A program made the translations under genes and the position numbers. The notes under the pieces are model-generated. The model ran no database searches, was not told the DNA's origin, and was given only the letters and a program-made list of their open reading frames with translations. 64,000 bases of DNA from Rhodospirillales bacterium RIFCSPLOWO2_02_FULL_58_16. GTDB lineage: Bacteria; Pseudomonadota; Alphaproteobacteria; Rhodospirillales; 2-02-FULL-58-16. Position 1 is the first letter of the stretch. Each line of letters opens with the position of its first letter. The stretch covers positions 164,663 to 228,662 of the forward strand of contig MIAA01000016.1 in the NCBI GenBank assembly GCA_001830425.1. Direction: 5' to 3'. Of the stretch, positions 13,635 through 44,398 are shown in pieces.

Positions 13635-13713
13635 GATCGCCGACTATACCCCAGCATTGATATCTGGCGAATCAAAAAACATCCTGCTACAAGTTCCTTC
13701 AAAGGAGGCCGTC

Positions 13714-14313: not shown

Positions 14314-14320
14314 GTCCGTC

Positions 14321-16849: not shown

Positions 16850-16852
16850 CAG

Positions 16853-17200: not shown

Positions 17201-17214
17201 GGGGCCTGAAGGTT

Positions 17215-18773: not shown

Positions 18774-18800
18774 TCCTTTCTTCAGTCATGTTGCCGTGAA

Positions 18801-19316: not shown

Positions 19317-19332
19317 ATTCGTACTCCCTGGT

Positions 19333-19935
19333 TTATGAATGGCCGATAAACTTTTGAATTTCGGCGGCTATTTTCTCGGGTCCGGAGCCGCGTTCAAAGC
19401 TGAACAACGCCTTGCCGTCGGGGCCGGACAGATAGATGGTCGAGGTGTGGCCCATGTAATAGGTATCGGGGTCGTTATCTTCATCGCCCAGTTTGACGTA
19501 TTGCGCCCGATAGGCTTTGGCGGCGGCGGCAATTTGTCCCTGCGTTCCGGTAAGGCCGACCATCCGGGGATGGAAGTTCTCCACATAGCCTTTCAGATGT
19601 TCGGGGGTGTCGCGTTCGGGATCGACGGTGATGAAAATGGGGACTACCTCGGCGCCGGCCTCGCCCAGGATGTTCAGCGCCTCGGCGATTGCCGTCAGCT
19701 CGGTGGGACAGATATCCGGACAGGATGTGTAGCCGAAGAAGGCGAGAATATAGCGGCCCCGATAATCCTTGTCGGTTACCGCGCGCCCGGTATGATCGAC
19801 CAGTGAAAAGGCTTTGCCGTCGGGGATGCCGGCAAGAATCACATAGGCCAATGCCCCCAGCGCCAGCGCTCCTCCCCCGAAGGCAAGGATGACAGTCGCC
19901 GTAGATGACTTGTTGCGGGCTTTCGCGGTCGTCAA
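19333..19935 (-). CDS. SCO1/SenC copper chaperone (thioredoxin fold)
   Basis: 200 aa with an N-terminal TM segment. FFGYTSCPDICPTEL is the CxxxC motif and a downstream His lies in MGHTSTIYL. Confidence 0.85.
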   Translation of the reverse strand: MTTAKARNKSSTATVILAFGGGALALGALAYVILAGIPDGKAFSLVDHTGRAVTDKDYRGRYILAFFGYTSCPDICPTELTAIAEALNILGEAGAEVVPIFITVDPERDTPEHLKGYVENFHPRMVGLTGTQGQIAAAAKAYRAQYVKLGDEDNDPDTYYMGHTSTIYLSGPDGKALFSFERGSGPEKIAAEIQKFIGHS

Positions 19936-20231: not shown

Positions 20232-21041
20232 ATGGCGCTCATGGACGAAGAGGGGAGAGTTTCTTTGAAAAAACGGCTCATTGCCGGGGGGCTGCTGGTC
20301 TTTTCCCTGATGTTGCCGGCGCCGCCGCCCGCCGTGGCCGGGGAGGACCTGTCCATCGGCAGGATGCGGCTGATGATCTGGCCCGAGCATGATGATTCCG
20401 GGGTTCTGGTTGTCTATGACGGCAGATTCGTCGAGGACGCCGAATTTCCCGCCAAGACAAGCTTCTTTATCCCCAAGGACGTGGTTATCAACGACATGTG
20501 CAGCCTGTCGCCGACCGGCCAGCATTTCTGCCAGCTTTACGCCGTCGAGAAGGGGCAGGTTGAGGACACGGCGCATCTGTCGTTGCCGTTCGCCAATTTT
20601 TATCTCAGCTTCCATACCCCCGCCCTTGACGTCGATTCCGCGAAAAGGCAATTCGATTTCAGGCTGAAAGCGAATCATGCGATCCGCAATCTGGAGATTG
20701 ATATCCAGCAGCCCCTGCGTTCAAGCGAATTCAATATTTCCCCGGCCGGCGGCGAGGTGATCGAGAAAAAAGGCTTTAATCATTTCAAGTATGTCCTGAA
20801 CGACATCGCCAGGGGCGACGAGAAGCTGATCAGGATCAACTACATCAAGAAGGACCGCGAACCCTCCGTCGATCTCAAATTCGCGTCGATGAGCAGCCCC
20901 AGGGTGTGGGGATCGCCCTATGAGGCCCAGAGGAAGGCGAAGACGCTTGTTTATGTGATCTTTGCCGGCGGCTTGGCGGCGGCGGTGAGCGGCCTTGCCT
21001 GGATCGTCGTCGCGAGAAGAAGAAAGAAATCATCGTCATGA
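20232..21041 (+). CDS. secreted protein with C-terminal TM anchor, function unknown; first gene of thiol-redox operon
   Basis: 269 aa with a signal-like N-terminus and a C-terminal TM segment plus RRRKKSSS tail. The stop overlaps the next start (ATGA). Alternative starts are at 20241 and 20265. Confidence 0.6.
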   Translation: MALMDEEGRVSLKKRLIAGGLLVFSLMLPAPPPAVAGEDLSIGRMRLMIWPEHDDSGVLVVYDGRFVEDAEFPAKTSFFIPKDVVINDMCSLSPTGQHFCQLYAVEKGQVEDTAHLSLPFANFYLSFHTPALDVDSAKRQFDFRLKANHAIRNLEIDIQQPLRSSEFNISPAGGEVIEKKGFNHFKYVLNDIARGDEKLIRINYIKKDREPSVDLKFASMSSPRVWGSPYEAQRKAKTLVYVIFAGGLAAAVSGLAWIVVARRRKKSSS

Positions 21042-21472
21042 ATATGCTCGGCAAGCGTTTCGGCTTTTTCTTGTCGGCGTTGTTGGTCGTCATGCTTATG
21101 GCGCCGGGCGGCGCTTTTGCCCTTACCGTCGGCGAGGTGGTGAAGGATTTGGCTTGTCCCTGCGTCTGCCCTCTGGTGCTTGAAGACTGCAACATGACCT
21201 GCGGGCTGGAGTGGAAGGACGAGGTGGGGAACCTGATCAAGAAGGGCATGACCAAGCAGGAAATCATCGACCATTTTGTACGCACATACGGCGAAGACGC
21301 CCGCTTGACCGCCTTGCAAAAGCTACAAGGCAAGACATATCAGTTCACCAGGAGCTTCGGCGTTATGGAATGGACGATGTTGTGGGCGGGCGTCGGCTTC
21401 TGGGTTTTGGTTCTGTTTTTCGGGATTTATCTGGGGGTCAGGAAACTGCGCTCCAAGGCGTACGCAGCGTGA
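21038..21472 (+). CDS. CcmH/NrfF-like cytochrome c maturation protein with atypical Cys cluster
   Basis: 144 aa: signal peptide, then LACPCVCPLVLEDCNMTC where LRCxxC is expected, then the CcmH-like GMTKQEIIDHFVRTYGEDA, then a C-terminal TM segment. Confidence 0.6.
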   Translation: MNMLGKRFGFFLSALLVVMLMAPGGAFALTVGEVVKDLACPCVCPLVLEDCNMTCGLEWKDEVGNLIKKGMTKQEIIDHFVRTYGEDARLTALQKLQGKTYQFTRSFGVMEWTMLWAGVGFWVLVLFFGIYLGVRKLRSKAYAA

Positions 21473-21513
21473 CCGGCTTGCCATATGGGCATTCAAGCGA
21501 ATATCAATAGTCT

Positions 21514-22332
21514 GTGAAATCAATCTTGCTCAGTTTTGTAATCTTTATGCTCCTGTTGGGGACGGTCTCCGTGGCCGGGTTTATCTATGTGGTGGAGCCG
21601 GGGCCGGAGGGACGAATCGGTTTCCTCAAGGCCACGGGCAGGCTGCTGCTCTATAAATACGCCCTGATCGACAGCCTGAAGCCGAGGGAGATCAGGCGTC
21701 TTTATGAAAGCTCCTGCACAAGGAAATGCCACGGCAAGGCCGTCATCGAGGACAAGCCGCGCACCGCCATGGAATGGGGGCAGATCGTCGAGCGCATGGG
21801 GGCCGGCGATCGCGCCGATCTCGCCTTCAATGAAAAAAAGACGATTATCGAGCATCTGCAAAGGAACTATCTGTCCAACGTGCCGACCATCCTGCCCGAC
21901 CACACCATGCGGTTTCTCAAAAAGCATTTGTGGCGGCTGGATTTCGGCGAGAGCGATCTTTACTTCGACATTATATATATGCCGCTCAAGCACCGCCGCT
22001 TTATGCCGTATCTGGCGCTGAAGGCGCAGCCGACGAACGGCGATGAGGCGGTTTTTATCGTCTATGTGAATACCCACACGGGGATTATTCCCTCGTGGGA
22101 CATGAGCAGGATCACCACGATTACCAACGGCGAGGGCCGCGAGACGAAGGCCGTCGGCTGGCAGATTCTGTTTGAAGACGTGGACAAGCATCATCGCCAG
22201 GGCATTCTTACCTTTCCGGAAATCGGCAAGGAGGGGGACGCCCTGACGTTGACGATCAAGCCCGAGGGAATGAAGGAAAGGATTTTCCAGTGGACCCTGC
22301 CGGTCCCCGATTATGTCGAGGCGGGTAAATGA
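21514..22332 (+). CDS. membrane-anchored periplasmic protein with a single CX3CH (CTRKCH) motif
   Basis: 272 aa with a GTG start and an N-terminal TM segment. SSCTRKCHGKAVIED...MEWGQIVERM was read directly. Confidence 0.55.
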   Translation: MKSILLSFVIFMLLLGTVSVAGFIYVVEPGPEGRIGFLKATGRLLLYKYALIDSLKPREIRRLYESSCTRKCHGKAVIEDKPRTAMEWGQIVERMGAGDRADLAFNEKKTIIEHLQRNYLSNVPTILPDHTMRFLKKHLWRLDFGESDLYFDIIYMPLKHRRFMPYLALKAQPTNGDEAVFIVYVNTHTGIIPSWDMSRITTITNGEGRETKAVGWQILFEDVDKHHRQGILTFPEIGKEGDALTLTIKPEGMKERIFQWTLPVPDYVEAGK

Positions 22333-22823
22333 GCAAAGGGATTTTGCCGGCGTTGTTGTGCCTGCTTTTCCTGTCGGGGTGTGATGGGGGTTCAGGGGCC
22401 GGAGCCGTCGAGAAAGGGCCGGCGCCTGATTTCATCCTCCGCCTTTTCGACGGCGGCGTTTTTCGCCTCGGCGAACACAGGGGAGAGGCGGTGGTCGTTA
22501 ATTTTTTTGCTTCGTGGTGTCTGGTCTGCGGCGTCGAGGCTTCCGATATCGAGGCCGCGCATCAGGAGTTCGCCGCCCGCAAGACGGTTTTCGTCGGCGT
22601 CGCCGTTCAGGATACCGAGAAGAAAGCCGAGGAGTTCGCTAAAACCCACGGCTACACCTTTGCCGCCGGCTTTGATAGGGACGGCAAGATCGGGCGGTCA
22701 TATGGGGTTCACGGCATGCCTGTCACCTTCGTTATCGACGGCAAGGGCGTTATCAGTCGTATTCGCGCCGGCGGCATTACGGCGGCGATGCTCAGAAATG
22801 ATCTGGAAAAGGTTCTTGAATGA
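22329..22823 (+). CDS. TlpA/ResA-like thioredoxin lipoprotein, WCLVC active site
   Basis: Lipobox LFLSGC. VVVNFFASWCLVCGVEA and the cis-Pro region GMPVTFVID are present. Confidence 0.8.
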   Translation: MSKGILPALLCLLFLSGCDGGSGAGAVEKGPAPDFILRLFDGGVFRLGEHRGEAVVVNFFASWCLVCGVEASDIEAAHQEFAARKTVFVGVAVQDTEKKAEEFAKTHGYTFAAGFDRDGKIGRSYGVHGMPVTFVIDGKGVISRIRAGGITAAMLRNDLEKVLE

Positions 22824-23341
22824 GATTGACGGGGCGGGTTCTTGCGGTCGTTTTATGGTCGGCGCTGCTGTTGCCGCCGGTTATCGGCTGCGAGGAAGAG
22901 GTAATCGTCAAAAGAGAGCCTGCGCCCGACTTTGTCCTCAAACTGTTTGACGGCGGGGAGTTCAACAGCGCCGATCACAAGGGCAAGGCGATGGTGGTTA
23001 ATTTCTTCGCCTCATGGTGCCTTCCGTGCAAGGTTGAAGCGCCGCATCTTGAAAAGGCCTACCGGGAGTTCAATATTAAACAGGACGATCCGGCCCGCAA
23101 GGTCGTCTTTCTCGGCGTCGCCATCCAGGACACGGAGGACGCGGCCATGGGCTTCGTCAAGGCGGCGGGGATAACTTTTCCGGCGGGGCTTGACGCCGAT
23201 GATAAAATCAAGGAGGCCTTCGGCGTGTATGGCTTGCCCACCACTTTTTTCGTCGATGGGAAGGGCATCGTCAGTTACACGTTCGCCGGGGGAATGACCG
23301 AGGTATTGTTGAGCAATGAACTGGACAAGATACGTTTTTAA
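22820..23341 (+). CDS. TlpA/ResA-like thioredoxin lipoprotein, WCLPC active site
   Basis: Lipobox PVIGC. MVVNFFASWCLPCKVEAP and GLPTTFFVD are present. Confidence 0.8.
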   Translation: MRLTGRVLAVVLWSALLLPPVIGCEEEVIVKREPAPDFVLKLFDGGEFNSADHKGKAMVVNFFASWCLPCKVEAPHLEKAYREFNIKQDDPARKVVFLGVAIQDTEDAAMGFVKAAGITFPAGLDADDKIKEAFGVYGLPTTFFVDGKGIVSYTFAGGMTEVLLSNELDKIRF

Positions 23342-23834
23342 TTTCCCCGCTCTTGTTGTTTTCCTGATCCCGGCGCTGTTCGGGTGTCTGGGCGACGACA
23401 TCAAGCCGCTGGCGGAAGGCGTCGCAGCGCCCAAGGCGACGCTCACCCTGCTCAACGGCGAGACCAGGGAAGTGACCGATCATCCCGGCAGGGGTCAGGT
23501 CGTCACTTTCATGTCGTCATGGTGCCCGTGCTCCAATGATTCGATTCCGATGTTCAAGAAAGCCTTCAAGCTTCACGGCGAGAACCAACGCCTCGCTTTC
23601 CTGATGATCGGCATCCAGGATTCCCGCGACAAGTTCGCGGAAACGGTCGGTAAATGGGACATTCCCTTTCCCGCCGGTTTTGACGCGGGCAACAAGATCG
23701 CCAGGACTTACGGCGTCAAGCAACCGCCGACCACCGTCTTTATTGATAAGGACGGCAAGGTGAAGAAGTTTTTCTACGGCAATATCAAGGATGTCGAGGA
23801 AGATTTCTATAAATGGCTTGAGGGGCTGGTCTAG
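23316..23834 (+). CDS. TlpA-like thioredoxin-fold lipoprotein with shortened WCPC (CxC) motif
   Basis: Lipobox ALFGC. VVTFMSSWCPCSNDSIP and QPPTTVFID are present. There is one residue fewer between the cysteines than in its two neighbours. Confidence 0.7.
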   Translation: MNWTRYVFNFPALVVFLIPALFGCLGDDIKPLAEGVAAPKATLTLLNGETREVTDHPGRGQVVTFMSSWCPCSNDSIPMFKKAFKLHGENQRLAFLMIGIQDSRDKFAETVGKWDIPFPAGFDAGNKIARTYGVKQPPTTVFIDKDGKVKKFFYGNIKDVEEDFYKWLEGLV

Positions 23835-24538
23835 TGGTCGGATTTTTCGAGGCCGGCCTACAGGGGTTTGCTTCTTTCTTTTCGATCTGGCAGGCCTGTA
23901 TCGCCCAGATCAGCCCGTTTTTCATGGCTTTTATCATCGGCCTTTACTTCATGGCCTGGCGCAGGGGAGCGCCTCCGTCCATGGTTCGGCGCACGGTGTT
24001 TCCGTCCGTGATTTACATGGCCGGGTTCAGCGCGCCCTACGCCCTGATGACGGCGACAGGGCTGCCCGTCGGGCGCTTGATGGCCTATCACAGCGGAACC
24101 CTTTCCGTTATCGCCGGCATCGTTATCCTGCTCATCGGCTTGTTTATGACGCTTTATGGCCGCGTTGCCTTTATCACAAAGCTGGACACTCCTCTTTATA
24201 TTGCTTTTATGTCGCTGCTGCTGGGGATCGCCTTCGCCCTTGTCTATTCGCCGTGCATCACCCCGACCTTGTCCAAGATTATGGGCATCGCCTCGCAGCC
24301 GAAAACGGCGATGACGGGAGCGATCCTTGCCTTTTTCTACGCCGTCGGCATATGCGTAGCTTTTCTGATCACCGGCGTCGTCCTGGTGCGCCTGTTATCC
24401 TCGGTCGGCGTCATGAGGCGCAATCCCGGCAGGGTCAAGGACAGTTGCGGCGCAATTCTCTGCGTTCTCGCCTTCCTCAACATCAGCGGCACGATGATTT
24501 TGTATAAAGCTTTCGTTCTCGGCTTTTTTGTCAAATAA
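23834..24538 (+). CDS. ccdA: CcdA/DsbD-family thiol-disulfide transmembrane electron transporter
   Basis: 234 aa, polytopic, with a GTG start. LVYSPCITPTL is the CcdA second-Cys motif and ACIAQISPF is the N-terminal Cys region. Confidence 0.75.
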   Translation: MVGFFEAGLQGFASFFSIWQACIAQISPFFMAFIIGLYFMAWRRGAPPSMVRRTVFPSVIYMAGFSAPYALMTATGLPVGRLMAYHSGTLSVIAGIVILLIGLFMTLYGRVAFITKLDTPLYIAFMSLLLGIAFALVYSPCITPTLSKIMGIASQPKTAMTGAILAFFYAVGICVAFLITGVVLVRLLSSVGVMRRNPGRVKDSCGAILCVLAFLNISGTMILYKAFVLGFFVK

Positions 24539-24742
24539 ATGCGCGACGGCCTCAAGCCGCCCAAGGGGCTTAAAAAACAGTTCTTCGGCGTTATTCTTGT
24601 CATTATTGGGCTGATTGATATTGTCGTTACCCGCTTTATGTATGATCAGACGGACGGCATTGATCTGTTTTTTATCGCCGCCGGTGTCGGCGTGTTTGTT
24701 TTCGGTTCCGTCCAGAGGCGGAAAAACGAGCGGGAATCATAA
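24539..24742 (+). CDS. small two-TM membrane protein
   Basis: 67 aa. The ATG abuts the ccdA stop (TAAATG). It has two hydrophobic helices. Confidence 0.45.
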   Translation: MRDGLKPPKGLKKQFFGVILVIIGLIDIVVTRFMYDQTDGIDLFFIAAGVGVFVFGSVQRRKNERES

Positions 24743-25137: not shown

Positions 25138-26919
25138 ATGCATGGAAAGTTAAGCAAGTTCATTTATAAGGGTCTTCTTCCGGGGATGCTTTTTTCAGTC
25201 GGCATCGCCGCTTCGGGGACTGCAAGCGCCGAATTGGCCAGCCAGGGCGGCGACCGCGACTGGTTGAACTATGACGGCGGCACGTCGACGACCGACTCGC
25301 CGACCATCGATCCGATGATCATGTACAACGCCGGCGGTCTTGACGGCAAAGTCGCCGTCATCGGCATTCCGTCGATGAGGACGTACCGTCACATCGATTG
25401 CGGCGTCGATCTTCATGAAATCCTGTTCGGCGGCTCCAACGCCGGCAACAAGAATTTCTCATCCAACGGAACGTTCGCCTACGTCAACGACAAGGGCGCC
25501 AACACCATCTGCGAAATCAATTTGCAGACCGGCATGTTGCAGCGGATAATGGCCATGCCGTTCCCGTTCGGTCTTCACCATATTACGATGGATCCCAAGG
25601 GTGAGTACCTGTACGGCTCCGGCGAGTACACCGGCAAGATGGCGAAGGTCGAGATCAAGTCCGGCAAGACCCAGATCATCGATTGGGGTCCTTCGCCCAG
25701 CGCTCCCGACTATCTGGACGCCGACAAGAAGGGCCGTTACATCTTCTCCGGCAACTACTACCACTCGACGGTCGGCGTTTTCTCCACCAACCCGTTCAAG
25801 TACATCAAGGAAATTCCGGTCGGCAAGAATCCGCACGGCACCGACGTGATCCCAGAGAGCACCAAGGTTATCGTCAGCGACAAGCTGTCGGCGACGATGA
25901 CGGTTATCGATGTTGAAAAGCTGGCGGTGATGAAGGTGTTCCCCACCTGCGCCGGTCCGCTTCACTCGGTGATGGACGTTTACAACAAGGACGGCGGTCC
26001 CTACCATCCCGGCAAGGACTCTCACGACGGCCTGACCTCGAAGTACGCTTATGAAAGCTGCTTCGTCGCCGACGCCAACGTGAAAATCGACCTTAACAAA
26101 CTTGAGGTGGTTGACGAAATCCCGACGCACTATCGCACGGGCCACATCATGATCAGCGCCGACAACAGCTACGTTTTCGCGCTGAACAAGTTCTCGACCG
26201 GCCTGTTCACTCCGACGGGCGTTGTTTACCCGGTTAACTTCGAGATGTGGGACGCCAGGGAAGCCAGTCCGACCTACGGCAAGACCCTGAAAATCATCCC
26301 CGTGGACGGCGAGCCTCATAACTCCAAGTCCATCTTCGGCGATCAGGTCAAGGACTGGACCATGGGCCAAGCCGAAAAGGGCGGGCTTATCAGCGCCTCG
26401 ACCCCGATGCTGGCTCCTGCTCACCGCTCCGGCGCGAAGATCACTTATCTGCCGAAGTCCACTGAAAAGCCCGGCGTTCGCACCGTGGACGGCGTAAAGG
26501 AACTCCACGTCAAGGCGTTCTCTTACGGCTATATCCCGCGTATGTTGAGGGTGAACAAGGGCGACAAGGTTCGCATCTTCGTCACCAACATCGACCAGGC
26601 GGCGGGCATCACCAAGAACCCTGACGTCACCATGGGCTTTTTGATCTATGGGCCGTATGGGCTTAAGACCAACCTTAGCCTGCCGCGCGGCATCACTGCG
26701 GTGACCGAGTTCGTCGCCGACATCGCCGGCGAGTACAGCGTCTTCTGTCAGCACTTCTGCGGTCCTCTGCACCTGGAAATGCGGGCGGAGTTCTTCGTGG
26801 ACGATACGGCGAAGGGACCGTCCAACCTGTCGGTAGGCGACTACGACAAGGCCCAGACTCTTCCGGGTCTGCTTGAGCCGGGTGAAATCACGATCAACAA
26901 GGTGGTTGACAGCCTCTAG
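25138..26919 (+). CDS. divergent NosZ-like copper protein: beta-propeller plus C-terminal CuA-type cupredoxin domain
   Basis: The ATG at 25138 follows AAAGGGGG and a Sec-type signal peptide follows. NosZ-like motifs appear in order: VIGIPSMRTY, GLHHIT, GKNPHGTDV, GPLHSV, THYRTGH, GEPHN, VTNID..DVTMGF, FCQHFCGPLHLEM (CX3CX3HX2M). See findings. Confidence 0.7.
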   Translation: MHGKLSKFIYKGLLPGMLFSVGIAASGTASAELASQGGDRDWLNYDGGTSTTDSPTIDPMIMYNAGGLDGKVAVIGIPSMRTYRHIDCGVDLHEILFGGSNAGNKNFSSNGTFAYVNDKGANTICEINLQTGMLQRIMAMPFPFGLHHITMDPKGEYLYGSGEYTGKMAKVEIKSGKTQIIDWGPSPSAPDYLDADKKGRYIFSGNYYHSTVGVFSTNPFKYIKEIPVGKNPHGTDVIPESTKVIVSDKLSATMTVIDVEKLAVMKVFPTCAGPLHSVMDVYNKDGGPYHPGKDSHDGLTSKYAYESCFVADANVKIDLNKLEVVDEIPTHYRTGHIMISADNSYVFALNKFSTGLFTPTGVVYPVNFEMWDAREASPTYGKTLKIIPVDGEPHNSKSIFGDQVKDWTMGQAEKGGLISASTPMLAPAHRSGAKITYLPKSTEKPGVRTVDGVKELHVKAFSYGYIPRMLRVNKGDKVRIFVTNIDQAAGITKNPDVTMGFLIYGPYGLKTNLSLPRGITAVTEFVADIAGEYSVFCQHFCGPLHLEMRAEFFVDDTAKGPSNLSVGDYDKAQTLPGLLEPGEITINKVVDSL

Positions 26920-26950
26920 GTTGTTCGCTCAGGCTTGTTGATACGGCTTG

Positions 26951-26994
26951 AAAACTCATCCCCCCTTCCATAAGAAGGGGGGATGAGAGTTTTC
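26951..26994 (+). terminator. strong rho-independent terminator after the NosZ-like gene
   Basis: AAAACTCATCCCCCC-TTCCATAAGAA-GGGGGGATGAGAGTTTT. An 11-bp GC-rich stem extends into an A/T flank and ends in a T-run. Confidence 0.75.
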
Positions 26995-27015
26995 AGGGGA
27001 CGGCGTTCGGGAAAA

Positions 27016-27531
27016 ATGAAAATGGTTTCTTTCATTAAAAGAACATTTGCGATTGCCTTGATTTCGGCAGTCGGCGGCTTTGCGGCCGGATGCGGCGAGG
27101 ATCGGCCGCTGCCTGAGGAAAAAGCCGAGGCCGTCGTTAAAAAATTTTATGAATACATTTCCGAAGCCAAGATCAGGGGGGGGAATCTTCTGATTCGCGA
27201 GGCCTACAAGCTGATCAGTTCCAAACAGTCCAATCTCGGTCAGCCGAAATTCATTGAGATCATTGACAAGTATCCTTCCGGGTTTAAGGTCGAAATCGTC
27301 GGCAGCGTCGTCAAGGGCCGACATGCCGATGTGACCATCGAATATAAAGTACCTTCTGCTTTCGGCGATATGATGGCCGTGCGCACCGGGATTCCGCTGA
27401 ATGTCGATGAGGAAACCAATACCTGGAAAATAGATTTTACGGGGGAAACCGACGGCCAGGACGTGGCGGCGATAAAAAAAATGGATACGCCGCCGGCGCC
27501 GGCCAAAAAGCCTGAGACGGGGGAAAAATAA
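27016..27531 (+). CDS. small lipoprotein (NTF2/DUF4878-like)
   Basis: MKMVSF...FAAGC lipobox and the KAEAVVKKFYEYISEAK pattern are present. The C-terminus is Pro/Lys-rich. Confidence 0.6.
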   Translation: MKMVSFIKRTFAIALISAVGGFAAGCGEDRPLPEEKAEAVVKKFYEYISEAKIRGGNLLIREAYKLISSKQSNLGQPKFIEIIDKYPSGFKVEIVGSVVKGRHADVTIEYKVPSAFGDMMAVRTGIPLNVDEETNTWKIDFTGETDGQDVAAIKKMDTPPAPAKKPETGEK

Positions 27532-27534
27532 GGA

Positions 27535-28167
27535 ATGCTGGCAAAAATTAGCGAATGGCTGGACGAAAGGGTCGGGCTGAGGGACAATTCCAGACGGAAA
27601 ATGGGACAGGCCGTTCCCGCCCATATGTTTTTTTACTGTTTCGGCGGGATATCGTTGTTCATTATCGCGCTTCAGGCGTTGACCGGCGTCTACATGCTTT
27701 TCTTTTATACTCCTCATCCCGAGCTGGCGCTGAAAAGCATCGAGGCGATGAGCAACGACGGTTCTTTCGGCTGGTTTTTCAGGAACATGCATCGTTGGGG
27801 CGCCACCGTGCTGCTCGCCGCCATCCTTACCCATGTGGTCACCGTTTTTTACCAGAAGGCTTATCGTCGCCCCCGCGAATTAAATTGGACGTCCGGAGTT
27901 TTGCAGTTTCTGGTGGTTGTCCTGTTGCTGGCGACGGGGATCATCCTGCCCTGGGACTGGCGGGCCTATTGGTCCTTTGCGTTATGGGTCGATTATTTTG
28001 AAACATGGCCCGTCGTCGGCGACTTTTTGAAAAATCTCCTGCTCGATACCTTTACGATCAACCGGGCGTTCGTCATTCATGTGTTGATTTTACCTATCGT
28101 TCTGGTTCTGCTGTTACGTTTCCATTTTGCAATGGTGAGGCGTCACGGCATTTCAGAGCCGTTGTAG
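27535..28167 (+). CDS. cytochrome b6-type (N-terminal four-helix) cytochrome b
   Basis: 210 aa. FRNMHRWGATVLLAAILTHV and AFVIHVLILPIVLVLLLRFHF give the two His pairs for bis-haem b. WDWRAYW resembles the PEWY-upstream region. Confidence 0.8.
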   Translation: MLAKISEWLDERVGLRDNSRRKMGQAVPAHMFFYCFGGISLFIIALQALTGVYMLFFYTPHPELALKSIEAMSNDGSFGWFFRNMHRWGATVLLAAILTHVVTVFYQKAYRRPRELNWTSGVLQFLVVVLLLATGIILPWDWRAYWSFALWVDYFETWPVVGDFLKNLLLDTFTINRAFVIHVLILPIVLVLLLRFHFAMVRRHGISEPL

Positions 28168-28187
28168 GGCAGGGGAGGATTTAAGAC

Positions 28188-28862
28188 ATGGCAGATACCG
28201 AGATGTTCCGCGATCCCAAGTACGATCCGCCCTATCCTCAGGAGTTTTATCGTTTCTGGCCGAGGCATGTGATCAAGGCCGGCGTCTGCGTTGTTTTGAC
28301 GCTGGCGGCGATTGTCGCCTTGTCTGTTTACTATATGGTGCCGACCGATCCCGCCATGCCGCCTTTGCCCGACGAGGGCATGTTTATTCCGGCCCCCGAG
28401 TGGTATCTTTTCGCCATCTTTCAGCCCTTCTGGTATCTGGCCGGGGATAATGTCGCGTTGCGGCCTGTCTTTACGTTTTGGCTGCCGGTCGGACTTGTCG
28501 TTTTTTTCCTGGCGATGCCGCTGCTGTTCGGCAGGAAGAGATGGTCCGGGGAAAGAGCGTCCCGCAGCAAGAAGCTTCTTATGTGGGGGGGCGCTTTGCT
28601 CGTTTGGTGCGGGCTGATCGGCGGCGTTGTCGGCAGCGGCTATCCGGCCAAGTCCACGGGGTGCCTGTCCTGCCATAATTTCATGATGGGGACGCGCCAG
28701 GCCTTGCCGCCGGCCAACATCGGCAAGTTTTATCGGGAAGAGCGCGAGCAGCAGATCAAGGTCGGCAAGTACAAGATCGGCGATACCGCCGGCGTCGGCC
28801 AGTCCTACAAGGACGCCAACTGGCAGCTCAGGCACTTTTACGAGCCGACGATGACCTGGTAA
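28188..28862 (+). CDS. cytochrome b subunit-IV-like membrane protein fused to a C-terminal monohaem c domain
   Basis: 224 aa. PAPEWYLFAIFQ is a PEWY-type motif. The C-terminus carries GCLSCHNF and NWQLRHFYEP, which is FixO/CcoO-like. Confidence 0.7.
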   Translation: MADTEMFRDPKYDPPYPQEFYRFWPRHVIKAGVCVVLTLAAIVALSVYYMVPTDPAMPPLPDEGMFIPAPEWYLFAIFQPFWYLAGDNVALRPVFTFWLPVGLVVFFLAMPLLFGRKRWSGERASRSKKLLMWGGALLVWCGLIGGVVGSGYPAKSTGCLSCHNFMMGTRQALPPANIGKFYREEREQQIKVGKYKIGDTAGVGQSYKDANWQLRHFYEPTMTW

Positions 28863-28881: not shown

Positions 28882-30108
28882 ATGCAATATGGAGCTTGCC
28901 TGAAGTTTTTTACCGTCCTCGCGGTGGTTGCATGCCTGTCGGCGTCGGGCGGGGCAGGCGCCGCCGCTCCGTCGATTCAGGAAGTCCTGCTGCCTGACGA
29001 TCTTAGCGCGCCCAACGCGATCATCGTCGATGACGCCGGCAAGGTATGGTTCGCCGAGAAGATCGGCAAAAAAATAGCGGCGTACGATCCCGAGGCAAAA
29101 ACTTTTCGTTCCTTTGCCGTTCCCGCGTCGTGGGGCAATGTCGGACCGTCCAGGATCGCCGTCGGGCCGCAGGGCAAAATCTGGATTACCGTGCAGAGGT
29201 GGGCGGATACCGTCGATCGAACGAATATCCTCGGCGAATTATCGCCTGCCGACGGCTCTTTCAAAAAACATGACCTGTACTTCAAGGCCGGCGCCGGGGA
29301 ATTGCTGGTCGATCAGGACAGGGTGATCCCCGAGGACCTGCTGGTGGACGGCAAGGGGAACGTGTGGTTCCTGGTTCCCGGCGAAAACGCGCTTTACCGG
29401 TATGATCCGGCGGATGGAACGTTGAAGGGCTATCCGATTCCGACCGTCGATTGCTATCCCAGGGGGATTGTCATTGACGGCAAGGGGATCATCTGGTTCG
29501 GCGAGGCCAACGCCAATAAAATCGCCGGGTTTGACCCGAAGAGCGCGACATTCAACGAATATGAAATACCGGCGCTTTTTTCCGGCGTCGGCGAGCTTGC
29601 CGTCGATGCAAAGGGGAAAATCTGGTTCGTCGAGGTGAGAAACAACAGGCTCGGCGTTTTCTCCCCCGACAGCGAGCGTTTTGACGAGGCGATGCTTCCT
29701 GCGGCGCGAAGCCTGCCCAGCGATCTGGTCGTCGATGCCTCCGGCAAAATATGGTTTCTGGAGTATCTTGAGAACAAGGTCGGCATGTTTGATCCCGAAC
29801 AGGCGTTGTTCAAGGAATATGTCATCCCCACTCCCGGCAGCCTGCCCGGCGGCATCGCTATTGACGTCGGGCGGTCGCGGCTGTGGTTCTCTGAATCCAA
29901 TACTGAGGCCAGGCGGTTGGGAATGCTGGATATCGGCGGGACGGCCATGGCCGGGAATAACGATGATTCCGCTTCGATCAAGAAGGCCGCCTCGGAAAAG
30001 AACAAGTCCGCCGACGGCGGCTATCTTAATTTAATTCTCGCCTTCGGAATGCTGCTGGCGGTCGGGGCGGCGTTCGTCTTTATTTCAAGACGAGGCGCCG
30101 GGAAGTGA
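28882..30108 (+). CDS. Vgb/NHL-like beta-propeller protein with C-terminal TM anchor
   Basis: 408 aa with a signal peptide. It has seven or so repeats of G(K)(I/V)WF.E...N.(I/L).(R/G/M)(F/Y)DP....F.E(Y).(I/V)P. The C-terminal TM segment is LILAFGMLLAVGAAFVFI. Confidence 0.65.
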   Translation: MQYGACLKFFTVLAVVACLSASGGAGAAAPSIQEVLLPDDLSAPNAIIVDDAGKVWFAEKIGKKIAAYDPEAKTFRSFAVPASWGNVGPSRIAVGPQGKIWITVQRWADTVDRTNILGELSPADGSFKKHDLYFKAGAGELLVDQDRVIPEDLLVDGKGNVWFLVPGENALYRYDPADGTLKGYPIPTVDCYPRGIVIDGKGIIWFGEANANKIAGFDPKSATFNEYEIPALFSGVGELAVDAKGKIWFVEVRNNRLGVFSPDSERFDEAMLPAARSLPSDLVVDASGKIWFLEYLENKVGMFDPEQALFKEYVIPTPGSLPGGIAIDVGRSRLWFSESNTEARRLGMLDIGGTAMAGNNDDSASIKKAASEKNKSADGGYLNLILAFGMLLAVGAAFVFISRRGAGK

Positions 30109-31097
30109 AATTTTTTTTATTTGCGGCGCTGCTCTGCCTTGTCGGGTTCTCGCCCACACATGCCCAGGAGTGGGGGGGCGCCTTCAAGAATTATCCCTTG
30201 CCGACGGACAATGCCTTGCCGTCAAGGGTGATCGCCGCCGCAGACGGCTCGGTTTGGGTTCTTGAAGCCAATGCCGGCAAGATCGCCGTGTTTCAGCCCG
30301 ACAAGGAAACCTTCGCCGAATATGACATTCCGACGTCGAACAGCTTTCCCACCGATTTTGCCTTTGATCCTTCGGGCAGGTTGTGGTTCACCGAACAGGA
30401 CGCCAATCAGTTAGGCGTGTTTGATCCCGTCGCCAAGACGTTCAAGGAATATGATATCCCGACGATTGACAGCTTTCCGCGTCGGCTGATCGTCGACGGC
30501 AAGGGCATTGTCTGGTTTACCGAGTTCTACGGCAACGCGATCGGGCGATTTGATCCGAAAACCGAGAAATTTATCGAGTATGCCGTTCCGACCAAAAACA
30601 GCCGTCCGACCGGAATACTGCTGGATAAGGACGGTCAGGTATGGTTTGTCGAAACCGAGGGCGACAAGTTCGGCGTACTTGATCCGAACGGCGGCGCCAT
30701 TAAGGAATTTCCGTTCGTCGAGGCGTTTCTCAGCCCCAAGGATATCATCATGGATGCGTCCGGCGTCATCTGGTTCGGCGCCCGCACCAGGAGCAAATTA
30801 GGGATGTTTAATCCCGCTGACGGCAAGTTTGAAGGGTATGATCTGCCGGTCAGGGGGGTTATTGAAGGAATGGCGGTAGACAAGAGAGGAAATATCTTGT
30901 TTTCTCTCGGGCATGTGGGTAGGCTAGGCGTGTTTGATACTGGGTCCAAGAGTTTTCTGGAGGTTAAGGTGACGCTGGGGTCCAGCGAGCCTGACGGACT
31001 TGATGTTGATGGCCATGGGGATATTTGGTTCACCGACATAACCCGGAATTCATTGGTTAAAGTAAACGGTGAAGAAATTTCTAAATTGTGGCTGTAA
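30105..31097 (+). CDS. Vgb/NHL-like beta-propeller protein (soluble paralogue)
   Basis: 330 aa with a signal peptide and the same repeat (GRLWFTEQDANQLGVFDPVAKTFKEYDIPT etc.). The start overlaps the upstream stop. Confidence 0.65.
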   Translation: MKFFLFAALLCLVGFSPTHAQEWGGAFKNYPLPTDNALPSRVIAAADGSVWVLEANAGKIAVFQPDKETFAEYDIPTSNSFPTDFAFDPSGRLWFTEQDANQLGVFDPVAKTFKEYDIPTIDSFPRRLIVDGKGIVWFTEFYGNAIGRFDPKTEKFIEYAVPTKNSRPTGILLDKDGQVWFVETEGDKFGVLDPNGGAIKEFPFVEAFLSPKDIIMDASGVIWFGARTRSKLGMFNPADGKFEGYDLPVRGVIEGMAVDKRGNILFSLGHVGRLGVFDTGSKSFLEVKVTLGSSEPDGLDVDGHGDIWFTDITRNSLVKVNGEEISKLWL

Positions 31098-31130: not shown

Positions 31131-32087
31131 ATGCGGCTTGAGATTAAAACAGCGTGGATGGCGGCTCTCGGCACATTTTTGCTGGTTTCGGCGTCTACGG
31201 GCGCCAAGGCGGAAGAAGCCAGGTGTACGCTCAGTGATGGCGCGAAAGTGGTTTGCCCCGTCCATACGGACGCGGACCTGAAGGCGGCGACAGACGCCTA
31301 CGCCAAGGAATCCCAATCCATGGGCACCGGCACCGCCGGCAGCACCTACGGCGTCGCGCCGTTTGATCGCCTGACCGGCGTCGGCAAGGCTTTCAGCAAC
31401 AAAGACAAGAAATCCGACATTAAAAACATCAGCGGCTACGGTGCCGCCTCGGGCAAGACCGAGTTGTGGGACCGCGTCAGGAAGCCCACCGAAGGCGAAG
31501 GCATCTATAACCAGTGGACGCATAACTGGTCGCCGACTTTCAAGGAAACGCTGGTTCCCGGCGCCGATCCTAACGCCGGCAAGCAGTGGTACTACTTCTA
31601 TTGCGTCGCCTGTCACGGCTGGGGTCTCCAGGGCGATGGTCCGAACGCGCTGTCCGTCGAACCGCGCCCGCGCATCCTGACCAAGGGCGACTACATGAAC
31701 AAGAAGTCCAACCTGCAGCTCTTTGAAGTCATCAAGGGCGGCGGCGAGGCCGCTAATCTGTCCTCGGCCATGCCGGTCTGGGGCAACATCCTTCAGGACC
31801 AGGACATCTGGAACCTGATCGCCTTTGTGCGGGCGATGGCCGACGTCGGCGCGCCCAAGACCATCGAAGAGTACTTGAATCCCAAGTCGACCTTCAAGCC
31901 GCTCAAGGATGACGTTACGGCTTTGAACGCTTCCAAGAGCAAGGCTTTTGCCGAGGTCAACGGAATGCTCGAAGGCGGCGGCGCCATTCCAGGCCGTGCC
32001 GCCGAAGGCGCTCTCAAGGGCAGCGGATACGTTGAAGGCGGTCTGCGCAAGACGCCGGAAAACGTTGGAATCAAGGCGAAGGAATAA
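31131..32087 (+). CDS. periplasmic monohaem c-type cytochrome with long N-terminal domain
   Basis: 318 aa with a signal peptide. YCVACHGWGLQGDGP and the distal Met region SSAMPVWG are present. Confidence 0.75.
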   Translation: MRLEIKTAWMAALGTFLLVSASTGAKAEEARCTLSDGAKVVCPVHTDADLKAATDAYAKESQSMGTGTAGSTYGVAPFDRLTGVGKAFSNKDKKSDIKNISGYGAASGKTELWDRVRKPTEGEGIYNQWTHNWSPTFKETLVPGADPNAGKQWYYFYCVACHGWGLQGDGPNALSVEPRPRILTKGDYMNKKSNLQLFEVIKGGGEAANLSSAMPVWGNILQDQDIWNLIAFVRAMADVGAPKTIEEYLNPKSTFKPLKDDVTALNASKSKAFAEVNGMLEGGGAIPGRAAEGALKGSGYVEGGLRKTPENVGIKAKE

Positions 32088-32299
32088 CTATATGCCGTTG
32101 AAGGGTTCCGGCTTCGCCGCCGGAACCCGGAAACGGGCGAAACAAGGGCTTGTGAGCGGCTGGTTTGCAGGTTCTTGACGGGGTTAGATTTTAAGGGGGG
32201 GCCGGAGGCGATTGAATCGCCGTCGGCCTCTTCTTGATTTAGGCCTTTGGTGTTATGTGTAATACCGGCGGCCTTAATTATTGGCCTATGGCGGCCCTC

Positions 32300-32414
32300 G
32301 CGCTTTCCCCTCCTTACCAGGGAGGGGGCAGGGGAGGTTGCCGCAACGACCCCCTCTAACTCTCCCTTGAAGCAAGGGGGAGGATTTTTTGGAGTAATTT
32401 TTTACGACCGCCGG
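32300..32414. repeat. family-1 GC-hairpin repeat, uninterrupted copy, inside the operon
   Basis: Aligns with 1180-1262 plus 1381-1447. It contains the hairpins CCCCTCCTTACCAGGGAGGGGG and CTCCCTTGAAGCAAGGGGGAG. Confidence 0.75.
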
Positions 32415-32441
32415 AATAACCCACGATCACAAACGAAAGCG

Positions 32442-33008
32442 ATGAAAAAGAAATTTTTCCTTACGGGATTTGTTATCGCTGCGATGGCGGGTCTGGTCGT
32501 CGTCGTGCCTAACCCGATGGGCGACAGGGTCATCAGTCAGGCGAAGGCGAGGGGATATCTTTCTTACTCCGCCGCCGAGGCGATGGAGCTGGCGTTCAAG
32601 CGGTGTTCCGCCTGTCACCCGGAAGAAAAAATACTCAAGTACTGTTCGCGATGCGGCCCCCCGTTTATCGTTGTGACGCATTTCATGAAAAGATATATAG
32701 ATATCGCCAGGGCGCAGGGAGTGGATATCGAACAGCTCAGGGATGCCGAAGTCGTCGCCATCGCGCAGGCGTGGAACGGCATAATCGGCAACTGGGAAAA
32801 TGATTGGCCGCAAAAGGATATCAAAAAGCTTCTTGAGGGCGACAGGGCGCTGATCACTCTTTTGGAAACGCCGGAAAAAGACAGGCCGATTGAAGCGGCG
32901 CTGAAAGACAAAAGCGTTCCGGGGGTTTATATGAGAGACGGTCTGGGCATGGAAAACAAAGAAAAAACCGGCGCGGGACAACAGAAAAAAGAAAAAGAAC
33001 CGTCATGA
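32442..33008 (+). CDS. membrane-anchored protein with one CxxCH (CSACH) motif
   Basis: ATG at 32442 (MKKKFFLTGFVIAAMAGLVVV). It has KRCSACHPEEK plus a second Cys pair, CSRC. The track ORF from 32247 runs through the repeat and is rejected. Confidence 0.55.
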   Translation: MKKKFFLTGFVIAAMAGLVVVVPNPMGDRVISQAKARGYLSYSAAEAMELAFKRCSACHPEEKILKYCSRCGPPFIVVTHFMKRYIDIARAQGVDIEQLRDAEVVAIAQAWNGIIGNWENDWPQKDIKKLLEGDRALITLLETPEKDRPIEAALKDKSVPGVYMRDGLGMENKEKTGAGQQKKEKEPS

Positions 33009-33937: not shown

Positions 33938-33939
33938 GT

Positions 33940-40734: not shown

Positions 40735-40748
40735 GACAAAAGGGAGAT

Positions 40749-41120: not shown

Positions 41121-41162
41121 GATGATGATTTCCCCGGCGTTCCTCATCGGGCGCCGGGGAGG

Positions 41163-41605: not shown

Positions 41606-41645
41606 GCAGGGTTCGTTTAAGTCTTTATCTTTGAGGGGAGCGAGC

Positions 41646-43565: not shown

Positions 43566-43569
43566 ACCG

Positions 43570-44385: not shown

Positions 44386-44398
44386 GAGGACGGGAGCG

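What the first reader, a model, noticed from the sequence alone, without database searches (positions are those of the whole stretch)
25138..26994. Highly divergent NosZ-like enzyme: NosZ propeller signatures with a large gap, and a CuA-type site whose first His is replaced by Met
Seen: after a Sec-type signal, the protein carries NosZ landmarks in NosZ order. VIGIPSMRTY corresponds to GVPSMRE. GLHHIT corresponds to D.HHP, the first two CuZ His. GKNPHGTDV corresponds to SPHG. GPLHSV corresponds to GLGPLHT. THYRTGH corresponds to HYQPGH. GEPHN corresponds to EPHD. A cupredoxin tail follows: VTNID...DVTMGF...FCQHFCGPLHLEM. The last motif (26745-26780) is an exact CuA CX3CX3HX2M pattern. Differences from canonical NosZ, as I remember the Pseudomonas stutzeri ligand set: (a) The HH-to-NPHG distance is about 75 aa instead of about 250, so the segments carrying two of the seven CuZ histidines are missing or relocated. 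(b) The upstream CuA histidine of the D..HGF motif is Met (DVTMGF, 26623-26640), while an extra His sits between the two Cys (CQHFC versus CSWFC). (c) The propeller-to-cupredoxin linker is longer. (d) No nosD, nosL, nosR or apbE gene is in the window. The gene has its own strong terminator (26951-26994), consistent with high, separately tuned expression. Inference: this is either a new NosZ lineage with a remodelled catalytic copper cluster or a NosZ-derived enzyme with a different substrate. Thiocyanate-dehydrogenase-type trinuclear Cu propellers are a precedent for such divergence.
Basis: partly seen in the sequence, partly recalled or inferred. Interest (0 to 1): 0.85.

Follow-up and report, generated by a model that had tools for sequence, protein, structure and literature searches.

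The report
Clade III lactonase-type nitrous oxide reductase

Summary
Window 25138-26919 (+) encodes a 593-aa Sec-exported protein. It passes NCBI's curated equivalog model for clade III lactonase-type nitrous-oxide reductase (742 bits, cutoff 700) and fails the clade I and II models (118 and 154 bits, cutoff 625). It carries every motif of the published L-NosZ filter. The AlphaFold2 model has a seven-bladed propeller plus a cupredoxin domain, and its best PDB matches are all NosZ.

The family was described by He et al., Nature 2025, so it is not new. The exact protein is GenBank OHC75614.1, a "hypothetical protein" from a Rhodospirillales groundwater MAG.

Two points are wrong:
- No CuZ histidine is missing. 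Seven invariant histidines are present.
- GLHH aligns with P. stutzeri H178, not with DxHH. The DxHH equivalent is DLH93-E94.

Met499 is the norm for clade III in my census. It occurs in every GTDB locus whose sequence covers that position, from Nitrospinota to Pseudomonadota.

The gene sits in a conserved cluster with a cytochrome b/c module, cytochromes c, thioredoxin-like proteins and a GldAFG-like ABC system. Copper chaperone genes lie next to it.

The parts
25138..26919 (+). L-nosZ coding sequence, 593 aa, clade III lactonase-type nitrous-oxide reductase. Identical to GenBank OHC75614.1.
   Evidence: NCBIfam NF052460 at 742.1 bits against cutoff 700. A 100% identical protein is P0001. AF2 mean pLDDT 87.3. 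The top 50 Foldseek PDB hits are all NosZ.
25138..25230 (+). Sec-type signal peptide (aa 1-31, MHGKLSKFIYKGLLPGMLFSVGIAASGTASA|E), no twin arginine.
   Evidence: Read directly from the sequence. AF2 pLDDT is below 50 for residues 1-52. N-termini of homologues also lack RR.
25312..26337 (+). Seven-bladed beta-propeller (aa about 59-400), 28 strands. It is compact because the long loops of canonical NosZ are absent.
   Evidence: DSSP on the AF2 model. Pfam YNCE, Lactonase and nos_propeller. hhalign against canonical NosZ.
25414..25419 (+). H93-E94 within GVDLHE, the equivalent of canonical D-x-H129-H130. Only the first His is kept.
   Evidence: MAFFT and hhalign. H93 is invariant; residue 94 is E, or N in Nitrospinota.
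25576..25581 (+). H147-H148 (the GXHH motif). H147 aligns with P. stutzeri H178. H148 is an extra invariant His and the likely replacement for H130.
   Evidence: phmmer and hmmsearch alignments to PDB NosZ, MAFFT, hhalign. Invariant in every complete sequence of both L-type groups.
25834..25836 (+). H233 in GKNPHG (P. stutzeri H326).
   Evidence: invariant.
25963..25965 (+). H276 in AGPLHS (P. stutzeri H382).
   Evidence: invariant.
26143..26145 (+). H336 in HYRTGH (P. stutzeri H433, the second His of HYQPGH).
   Evidence: Residue counting in the alignment; invariant.
26317..26319 (+). H394 in GEPHN (P. stutzeri H494).
   Evidence: invariant.
26437..26805 (+). C-terminal cupredoxin (CuA) domain, aa about 434-556.
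   Evidence: Pfam Cupredoxin_1. Matches to COX II CuA domains and nitrosocyanin. AF2 strands 434-556.
26632..26634 (+). Met499 in NPDVTMGF, at the position of the first CuA histidine (P. stutzeri H583). It is preceded by a 6-aa clade III insertion of low model confidence.
   Evidence: Alignments. Met is present in about 150 protein clusters and in every GTDB locus whose sequence covers the position (76 of 80). pLDDT is below 50 at residues 489-493.
26746..26781 (+). CuA motif C537-Q-H539-F-C541-G-P-L-H545-L-E-M548 (CX2FCX3HXEM).
   Evidence: sequence. Invariant C537, C541, H545 and M548. Residue 539 is H, T or Q across the clade.
26947..26997 (+). GC-rich hairpin in the 96-nt spacer after nosZ. 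Probably a partial terminator or a 3'-stabilising stem.
   Evidence: -36.7 kcal/mol, z = -5.74. A comparable hairpin follows nosZ in nearly all related loci despite different sequences. The U-tract is only UUUU.
26983..27531 (+). Conserved lipoprotein of unknown function. The likely start is ATG 27016, and the lipobox is FAAGC.
   Evidence: sequence. No Pfam or NCBIfam hit. Immediately downstream of L-nosZ in 35 loci.
27535..28167 (+). Cytochrome b6-like subunit, putative quinol dehydrogenase.
   Evidence: Pfam Cytochrome_B at 120 bits. NCBIfam cytochrome b6 and ExtP-like, below their cutoffs. Syntenic in 34 loci.
28188..28862 (+). Membrane protein with a C-terminal CLSCH haem c motif. I read it as a subunit IV-like partner of the cytochrome b.
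   Evidence: A fused paralogue lies at 38612-39781. Syntenic in 32 loci.
28882..31097 (+). Two NHL / Vgb-lyase-type beta-propeller proteins (28882-30108 and 30105-31097).
   Evidence: Pfam Vgb_lyase at 127 and 165 bits. Syntenic in 41 loci.
31131..32087 (+). Monohaem cytochrome c, the candidate electron donor to CuA.
   Evidence: Pfam Cytochrom_C, CVACH motif. Found near L-nosZ in 64 of 80 loci, and directly downstream of it in Gallionella and Zetaproteobacteria loci.
32247..33008 (+). Membrane-anchored protein with CSACH and CSRC motifs. The likely start is near 32439.
   Evidence: Syntenic in 28 loci.
33005..37288 (+). GldA/GldF/GldG-like ABC system: ATPase 33005-33937, ABC-2 permease 33940-34719, ABC_transp_aux 34707-36338 and DUF4340 36326-37288.
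   Evidence: Pfam. NCBIfam GldA and GldF-like, below their cutoffs. Syntenic in 12-24 loci.
20232..24742 (+). Upstream maturation-type genes: unknown 269 aa, Cys-rich CcmH-like, unknown 272 aa, three TlpA/AhpC-TSA thioredoxin-like lipoproteins, a CcdA/DsbD_TM thiol-reductant transporter and a 67-aa membrane protein.
   Evidence: Pfam, sequences. Co-located with L-nosZ in 12-16 loci.
18291..19935 (-). Divergent copper-handling operon: SCO1/SenC (19333-19935), PCuAC (18801-19316) and a TAT-exported Csp1-family copper storage protein (18291-18773).
   Evidence: Pfam SCO1-SenC at 169.7 bits, PCuAC at 114.5 bits, NCBIfam TIGR04401 at 142 bits against cutoff 100. A Sco homologue lies near L-nosZ in 10 loci.

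Best explanation
The gene encodes a periplasmic, Sec-exported clade III (lactonase-type) nitrous-oxide reductase, L-NosZ. It has a compact seven-bladed propeller that should hold a CuZ-type copper-sulfide cluster on seven histidines: H93, H147, H148, H233, H276, H336 and H394. A C-terminal cupredoxin domain should hold a binuclear CuA centre on C537, C541, H545 and M548, with Met499 where canonical enzymes have their first, flipping histidine.

By analogy with canonical NosZ (inferred, not shown here), it should work as a head-to-tail dimer in which CuA of one chain feeds CuZ of the other, reducing N2O to N2.

The following steps are inferred from conserved synteny and domain content only:
- Electrons come from the quinol pool through the adjacent Rieske-less cytochrome b6-like / haem c membrane module and the conserved monohaem cytochrome c.
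- The copper centres are matured by TlpA-like thioredoxins with CcdA (keeping the CuA cysteines reduced) and by Sco, PCuAC and Csp1 (copper supply).
- The GldAFG-like ABC system and the NHL propellers occupy the place that NosDFY/NosL hold in canonical clusters.
- The hairpin after the stop codon lets nosZ transcript outnumber the accessory transcripts.
For: - Family assignment: NF052460 L-NosZ equivalog at 742 bits against cutoff 700, E 2e-223, full-length match over residues 58-556. Clade II and clade I models score only 154 and 118 bits against cutoff 625.
- Published filter: all motifs as quoted are present, namely CX2FCX3HXEM, GXHH, PHG, GPLH and EPH, and the length is within 400-900 aa (sequence).
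- Fold: pLDDT 87.3, pTM 0.87, 28 propeller strands plus a cupredoxin. The Foldseek top 50 are all NosZ at E about 1e-32.
- Homology to canonical NosZ over the full length: hhalign probability 100%, E 1.7e-76.
- Ligand conservation: the seven His plus C, C, H and M are invariant in 51 diverse L-type sequences, in about 165 clusters and in every GTDB locus whose sequence covers them.
- Position in the fold: each of the seven His lies at or immediately before the start of the equivalent strand in blades 1, 2, 4, 5, 6 and 7. This is the same blade pattern as P. stutzeri H129/130, H178, H326, H382, H433 and H494 (ligand list from PMC8179356).
- Tree: a neighbour-joining tree places the protein with Nitrospinota, Nitrospirota and Desulfobacterota homologues, apart from clades I and II.
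- Synteny is conserved from Nitrospinota to Pseudomonadota.
- Literature: the family is reported as an active N2O reductase lacking canonical accessory genes.
Against: - No experiment exists on this protein or, as far as I could read, on a proteobacterial member. I could not access He et al. 2025 to see which subgroup was tested.
- The score of 742 is near the lower edge of the model's accepted range. The His-type group B scores 914.
- Met499 replaces a CuA ligand that is histidine in every solved NosZ sequence shown aligned here, and Glu94 replaces CuZ ligand H130, whose H130A variant is copper-free and inactive in P. stutzeri.
- No coordinates were available, so the geometry of the seven-His cluster and the ligation by Met499 are inferred, not measured.
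- The dimer, the electron path and all maturation roles are inference.
- No nir or nor genes are in the window, so the physiological context is unknown.
Confidence: 0.8

Rival explanations
1. A NosZ-derived copper enzyme that shares the clade III fold but has a different physiological substrate or role in this proteobacterial, iron-oxidiser-rich subclade, for example another small oxidant or a sulfur or selenium species. On this view the 'N2O reductase' label would be over-propagated from tested members.
For: - Met499 and Glu94 differ from canonical ligands.
- The score is near the model cutoff.
- The subclade is concentrated in Gallionella, Zetaproteobacteria and Magnetococcales MAGs.
- It is tightly linked to a cytochrome bd-like membrane protein and several cytochromes c that are 70-80% conserved.
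- The adjacent cytochrome b resembles ExtP of a selenite/tellurite-reduction operon, though below that model's cutoff.
- No nir or nor genes are in the window.
Against: - The same Met, Glu/Asn and HH pattern is shared by the Nitrospinota and Desulfobacterota homologues, the phyla that the literature names as clade III N2O reducers.
- All published motifs are present.
- NCBI curators set the equivalog cutoff so that this group is included, with the next group falling at 596 bits.
- The full seven-His plus CuA ligand set is under strict conservation.
Confidence: 0.12
2. A genuinely new NosZ lineage outside every described clade.
For: Very low scores against the clade I and II models. Only 19-20% identity to any solved NosZ. 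GenBank still calls it 'hypothetical protein'.
Against: It passes the curated clade III model and all published clade III motifs. There are hundreds of close homologues, some already labelled nitrous oxide reductase by JGI. The family was published in 2025.
Confidence: 0.03
3. A catalytically dead NosZ-like paralogue, a scaffold or pseudo-enzyme.
For: Such paralogues exist in the family. P0121 lacks the HH doublet and both CuA cysteines. P0128 and P0136 lack CuZ histidines.
Against: This protein keeps every putative ligand. These positions are invariant across phyla. It is embedded in an electron-transfer and copper-maturation cluster.
Confidence: 0.03

Closest known systems
Clade III lactonase-type nitrous-oxide reductase (L-NosZ / NosZIII; He et al. 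2025, Nature 646:152; NCBIfam NF052460)
   Same: It passes the equivalog model and carries all published motifs (CX2FCX3HXEM, GXHH, PHG, GPLH, EPH). It has a Sec signal and a compact YncE/lactonase-like seven-bladed propeller plus cupredoxin. Canonical nosDFYL/nosR genes are absent, and cytochrome and transporter genes are neighbours, as reported for clade III MAGs.
   Different: Nothing at family level. It belongs to the large Met-type subgroup (Met at the first CuA His position), which scores 742-825 bits. A small His-type subgroup (Desulfovibrio sp. and Chloroflexi MAGs) scores about 914. Its host is an alphaproteobacterial (Rhodospirillales) groundwater MAG.
Clade II (Sec-dependent, 'atypical') NosZ, TIGR04246
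   Same: Sec export, a seven-bladed propeller plus CuA cupredoxin, and shared PSMR, NPHG, GPLH, HYxxGH, EPH and CuA motifs. hhalign E 1.7e-76 against a mixed clade I/II profile.
   Different: Only 154 bits against cutoff 625. About 100 residues of propeller loops are missing. H130 is replaced by Glu94, with an extra His148. The first CuA His is replaced by Met. No nosB/G/H/C or nosDFYL genes are present.
Clade I NosZ, e.g. Pseudomonas stutzeri N2OR (PDB 3SBP, 6RL0)
   Same: It is the best structural match class (Foldseek E about 1e-32). Six of the seven CuZ histidines and four of the six CuA ligand positions are conserved residue for residue. D486 corresponds to D576, the H-bond partner of H583.
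   Different: 19% identity, Sec rather than Tat export, and 118 bits against cutoff 625. The stretch that aligns to the canonical loop region containing the Ca2+-binding loop (N257-D273) is largely gapped. Met499 replaces the flipping H583, His539 replaces W620, and Glu94 replaces H130.
   Same: A copper-binding seven-bladed propeller with histidine ligands at the hub (from general knowledge).
   Different: TcDH has no CuA cupredoxin domain. It does not appear among the sequence hits listed at E up to 10 with the single sequence or 1e-5 with the profile, or among the top 50 structural hits, which are all NosZ.
CuA domain of cytochrome c oxidase subunit II (e.g. Thermus 2CUA)
   Same: The cupredoxin fold and the C-x3-C-x3-H-x2-M loop (profile hit at E about 2e-8).
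   Different: Here the domain is fused to a propeller, and the upstream histidine ligand is Met.

Membership tests
Clade III L-NosZ | Score at or above the curated cutoff of the NCBIfam equivalog model NF052460 (700 bits) | tested here: met
   742.1 bits, E 2.1e-223, model positions 1-480 matched to residues 58-556.
Clade III L-NosZ | Length 400-900 aa (published filter, quoted) | tested here: met
   593 aa.
Clade III L-NosZ | CuA motif CX2FCX3HXEM | tested here: met
   C537-QH-F-C541-GPL-H545-L-E-M548; invariant in homologues.
Clade III L-NosZ | DXHH or GXHH motif | tested here: met
   G145-L-H147-H148; invariant. By alignment this GXHH is not positionally equivalent to canonical DXHH.
Clade III L-NosZ | PHG, GPLH and EPH motifs | tested here: met
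   P232-H233-G234, G273-P-L-H276 and E392-P-H394; invariant.
Clade III L-NosZ | Phylogenetic placement inside the reference clade III | tested here: inconclusive
   The neighbour-joining tree groups it with Nitrospinota, Nitrospirota and Desulfobacterota homologues and apart from clades I and II.
Clade III L-NosZ | Sec-dependent export | tested here: met
   The N-terminus has a basic n-region, a hydrophobic core and an ASA cleavage motif, with no RR. This was judged by inspection, not with a predictor.
Clade III L-NosZ | No canonical nos accessory genes nearby; cytochrome and transporter genes instead (as reported) | tested here: met
   No NosD, NosL, NosR or ApbE domain in the ORFs scanned across the window. 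Cytochrome b, cytochromes c and a GldAFG-like ABC system are adjacent.
Clade III L-NosZ | Catalyses N2O reduction to N2 | not testable with these tools
   Needs enzyme assays or physiology.
Canonical NosZ clades I and II | Score at or above the cutoff of TIGR04244 (Tat) or TIGR04246 (Sec), 625 bits | tested here: not met
   118.1 and 154.5 bits.
Canonical NosZ clades I and II | Seven CuZ histidines at the canonical positions (P. stutzeri H129, H130, H178, H326, H382, H433, H494; PMC8179356) | tested here: not met
   Six align to His. H130 aligns to Glu94. An additional His148 follows the H178 equivalent.
Canonical NosZ clades I and II | CuA ligand set His, Cys, backbone carbonyl, Cys, His, Met (H583, C618, W620, C622, H626, M629) | tested here: not met
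   The H583 position is Met499 and the W620 position is His539. C, C, H and M are conserved.
Thiocyanate dehydrogenase | Single-domain propeller with a trinuclear Cu site and detectable similarity to solved TcDH | tested here: not met
   A cupredoxin CuA domain is present. No TcDH appears among the sequence hits listed or in the Foldseek top 50.

The most novel reading that the evidence does not exclude
Most clade III N2O reductases may run on rewired copper centres that have not been characterised biochemically.
- CuA centre: the first histidine, the residue that flips in P. stutzeri and has been proposed to gate electron transfer to CuA, is a methionine throughout the main clade. No obligatory compensating histidine exists, because residue 539 is H, T or Q.
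- CuZ cluster: the histidine doublet sits on the next blade, with Glu or Asn at the old second position.

If so, L-NosZ would have a one-histidine, two-methionine CuA with a different potential and gating. One CuZ copper would be ligated from a different strand. This could relate to its independence from NosR and NosDFYL and to the acid tolerance reported for a bacterium carrying clade III NosZ.
Probability: 0.35. Interest if true: 0.55.

Novelty: already known. Interest (0 to 1): 0.3.

Why it matters
NosZ is the only known biological sink for the greenhouse gas N2O, so every clade matters for emission budgets. This window adds an alphaproteobacterial groundwater example of clade III with its full gene neighbourhood. 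It also adds a family-wide census of copper ligands: Met in place of the first CuA histidine, a shifted HH doublet, and accessory genes conserved from Nitrospinota to Pseudomonadota. These give concrete targets for the first biochemical and structural work on L-NosZ. The existence and the assignment of the enzyme itself are no longer news.

Tried and rejected
- Discovery paper. I tried to read He et al. 2025 by DOI and by PubMed id, but it is not held. Supplements of the lake-sediment paper are not held either. I therefore cannot say whether the Met-for-His change or the HH shift is already discussed there. Rejected after three independent alignments.\n- His539 (CQHFC) as a relocated replacement for the lost CuA histidine. 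Rejected as obligatory, because Deltaproteobacteria MAGs have Thr (CETFC) and some Nitrospinota and Nitrospiria have Gln (CQQFC) while keeping Met499.\n- H85, H209 and H331 as CuZ ligands. Rejected. They are not conserved in the His-type group B, and H85 and H209 do not lie on the hub strands.\n- TcDH-like reading. No support.\n- Residue-level geometry. Structure prediction returns no coordinates, so distances between histidines and ligation by Met499 could not be measured. The Foldseek TM of about 0.5 with rmsd of about 16.7 A probably reflects a different propeller-cupredoxin orientation in a monomer model compared with the domain-swapped crystal dimers. I could not verify this.\n- NosF/NosY identity of the ABC pair. 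The best NCBIfam matches are GldA and GldF-like, below their cutoffs, and NosF is not in the listed top 25 for the ATPase.\n- Canonical intrinsic terminator on the plus strand. The scan lists the hairpin only on the minus strand, because the plus-strand U-tract is four U's.
Full report
**What is there.** The ORF at 25138-26919 (+) encodes 593 aa. It starts at an ATG preceded by a GGGGG ribosome-binding site. The N-terminus is a Sec-type signal with no twin arginine. An identical protein is in GenBank as OHC75614.1 / OHC79884.1, "hypothetical protein", from Rhodospirillales bacterium RIFCSPLOWO2_12_FULL_58_28, a groundwater MAG.

**Family assignment.**
- NCBIfam's equivalog model NF052460, "clade III lactonase-type nitrous-oxide reductase (L-NosZ)", matches end to end at 742 bits (cutoff 700, E 2e-223).
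- The Sec-type and Tat-type NosZ models reach only 154 and 118 bits against cutoffs of 625.
- Pfam sees YNCE/Lactonase propeller repeats, the NosZ propeller repeat and a weak cupredoxin.
- A family profile finds solved NosZ structures at E 6e-56.
- A profile-profile comparison with canonical NosZ gives probability 100%, E 1.7e-76, over 450 columns.
- AlphaFold2 on a 51-sequence alignment gives pLDDT 87.3 and pTM 0.87, with 28 strands (seven blades of four) followed by a cupredoxin.
- The 50 best Foldseek matches in the PDB are all NosZ, at E about 1e-32 and 19-20% identity. Nothing closer appears among the matches listed, so there seems to be no solved L-NosZ structure in that copy of the PDB.

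**Literature.** The family was described by He et al. 2025 (Nature 646:152) as a new, active protein family of N2O reductases. [quoted passage not shown] It occurs in Nitrospinota, Nitrospirota, Desulfobacterota, Pseudomonadota and others, and lacks canonical nos accessory genes (as cited). I could not read the paper itself. [quoted passage not shown] The window protein has all of them.

The motifs it listed are real, but one correspondence is wrong.
- MAFFT, HMMER against P. stutzeri N2OR and hhalign all put G-L-H147-H148 opposite the P. stutzeri H178 motif (AIHGL).
- The same alignments put canonical D-C-H129-H130-P-H-I-S opposite D-L-H93-E94 (family consensus DLHEPVFS).
- The remaining equivalences hold: H233 = H326, H276 = H382, H336 = H433 and H394 = H494. 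The ligand list is from PMC8179356.
- So no CuZ histidine is lost. Seven histidines (93, 147, 148, 233, 276, 336, 394) are invariant in 51 diverse sequences, in about 165 clusters and in every GTDB locus whose sequence covers them.
- In the model each of the seven lies at or immediately before the start of the equivalent strand of blades 1, 2, 4, 5, 6 and 7.
- What differs from canonical NosZ is the distribution. The HH doublet sits one blade later, and the old second position is Glu, or Asn in Nitrospinota.
- The "large gap" is loop compaction. H148 to H233 is 85 aa, against 143-148 aa in canonical enzymes, and about 40 aa are also missing between PSMR and DxH.
- H85, H209 and H331 are conserved only in the main subgroup and are probably not ligands.

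**The CuA site.**
- Met499 does align with the first CuA histidine, P. stutzeri H583.
- It follows a 6-aa clade III insertion that is modelled with low confidence.
- This is not peculiar to this protein. NPDV[TI]MG occurs in every GTDB locus whose sequence covers that position (76 of the 80 kept), including Nitrospinota at 49-52% identity, and in about 150 protein clusters.
- Only a small group keeps His: Desulfovibrio sp. and Chloroflexi MAGs, P0123 and P0270-P0282. That group scores highest on the NCBIfam model (914 bits).
- The His between the two cysteines (CQHFC) is frequent but is replaced by Thr or Gln in some Met-type members. It cannot be an obligatory substitute ligand.
- In P. stutzeri N2OR, H583 is often found unbound from CuA and has been proposed to gate electron transfer. 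A clade that replaces it with Met is chemically plausible, but it should have a different CuA. I could not establish whether this has been noted in print.

**Neighbourhood.** tblastn of the window's neighbours against 80 related loci shows a conserved cluster.
- Downstream of L-nosZ: a lipoprotein, a cytochrome b6-like protein, and a membrane protein with a C-terminal CXXCH. These are followed by two NHL/Vgb-type propellers, a monohaem cytochrome c and a membrane CXXCH protein. A GldA/F/G-like ABC system with DUF4340 closes the cluster.
- Upstream in many loci: an unknown protein, a Cys-rich CcmH-like protein, another unknown, three TlpA-like thioredoxins and CcdA.
- In Gallionella and Zetaproteobacteria loci the cytochrome c follows nosZ directly.
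- In this window a divergent operon encodes Sco, PCuAC and a TAT-exported Csp1 copper-storage protein.
- No NosD, NosL, NosR or ApbE domain was found in the ORFs I scanned across the window.
- From this I infer, but do not show, quinol to cytochrome b/c to cytochrome c to CuA electron flow, and thioredoxin/Sco-type maturation of CuA.

**Hairpin.** A -36.7 kcal/mol stem (z = -5.7) fills the spacer after the stop codon. Equivalent GC-rich stems follow nosZ in almost every related locus despite unrelated sequences. On the plus strand the U-tract here is short, and the downstream genes are syntenic and co-oriented. Attenuation or transcript stabilisation is therefore more likely than full termination.

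**Verdict.** The interpretation of a distinct NosZ lineage is right, but the lineage is already known and curated. The claim of missing CuZ histidines is wrong, and the Met-for-His CuA change is a family trait rather than an oddity of this gene. An approximate neighbour-joining tree places the protein inside the Met-type clade, with Nitrospinota, Nitrospirota and Desulfobacterota sequences. Residual uncertainty concerns function in this proteobacterial subclade, which is untested, and the actual copper geometry.

Noticed in passing
window 18291-19935 (-): A divergent copper-handling operon lies next to the L-nos cluster. It encodes SCO1/SenC, PCuAC and a TAT-exported Csp1-family four-helix-bundle copper storage protein (TIGR04401, 142 bits against cutoff 100). 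A copper store beside a 12-Cu-per-dimer enzyme is suggestive. Only the Sco homologue recurs near L-nosZ elsewhere, in 10 of 80 loci.
   Followed up: partly
window 40069-48187 (+); also L009, L012, L014-L023, L030-L036, L043, L053, L060, L064, L065, L068: A 644-aa cytochrome bd subunit-I-like membrane protein (41631-43565) has no NCBIfam match. It lies with three cytochromes c, one of which is fused to an EB_dh / DMSO-reductase-II gamma haem b domain, and a USP protein. The bd-like protein is 70-80% identical and within 10 kb of L-nosZ in at least 23 of 80 loci. That is more conserved than L-NosZ itself. It may be a linked respiratory module of unknown function.
   Followed up: partly
window 38612-39781 (+) and 27535-28862 (+): There are two paralogous Rieske-less cytochrome b6-like modules, each with a subunit IV-like part ending in a CXXCH motif. 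One is split into two genes next to nosZ. The other is fused into a single 389-aa protein. Both resemble ExtP-type quinol dehydrogenases, below that model's cutoff.
   Followed up: partly
proteins P0121, P0128, P0136 (not in the window): Some L-NosZ paralogues have degenerate metal sites. P0121 (1139 aa) lacks the HH doublet and both CuA cysteines and carries a C-terminal extension of about 600 aa. P0128 and P0136 keep the CuA motif but lack several CuZ histidines. All score below the L-NosZ cutoff (283-596 bits).
   Followed up: partly
loci L001-L080, first 130 nt after the nosZ stop codon: A GC-rich hairpin immediately downstream of L-nosZ recurs in nearly all loci across four phyla. The sequences differ, and U-tracts are clearer in the Nitrospinota and Deltaproteobacteria loci.
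   Followed up: partly
window 21038-21472 (+) and 23316-23834 (+): The CcmH-like protein has an unusual Cys-rich stretch (CPCVCP...C...C) instead of the usual CXXC. The third TlpA-like protein has CPC instead of CXXC. These may be copper- rather than haem-related thiol chemistry.
   Followed up: no
window 13561-17574 (+), 1447-3550 (-): The flanks are ordinary housekeeping genes: a his operon (hisB, H, A, F, E) plus a HIT protein, and ferrochelatase and uroporphyrinogen decarboxylase. Nothing suggests a mobile element around the nos cluster.
   Followed up: no
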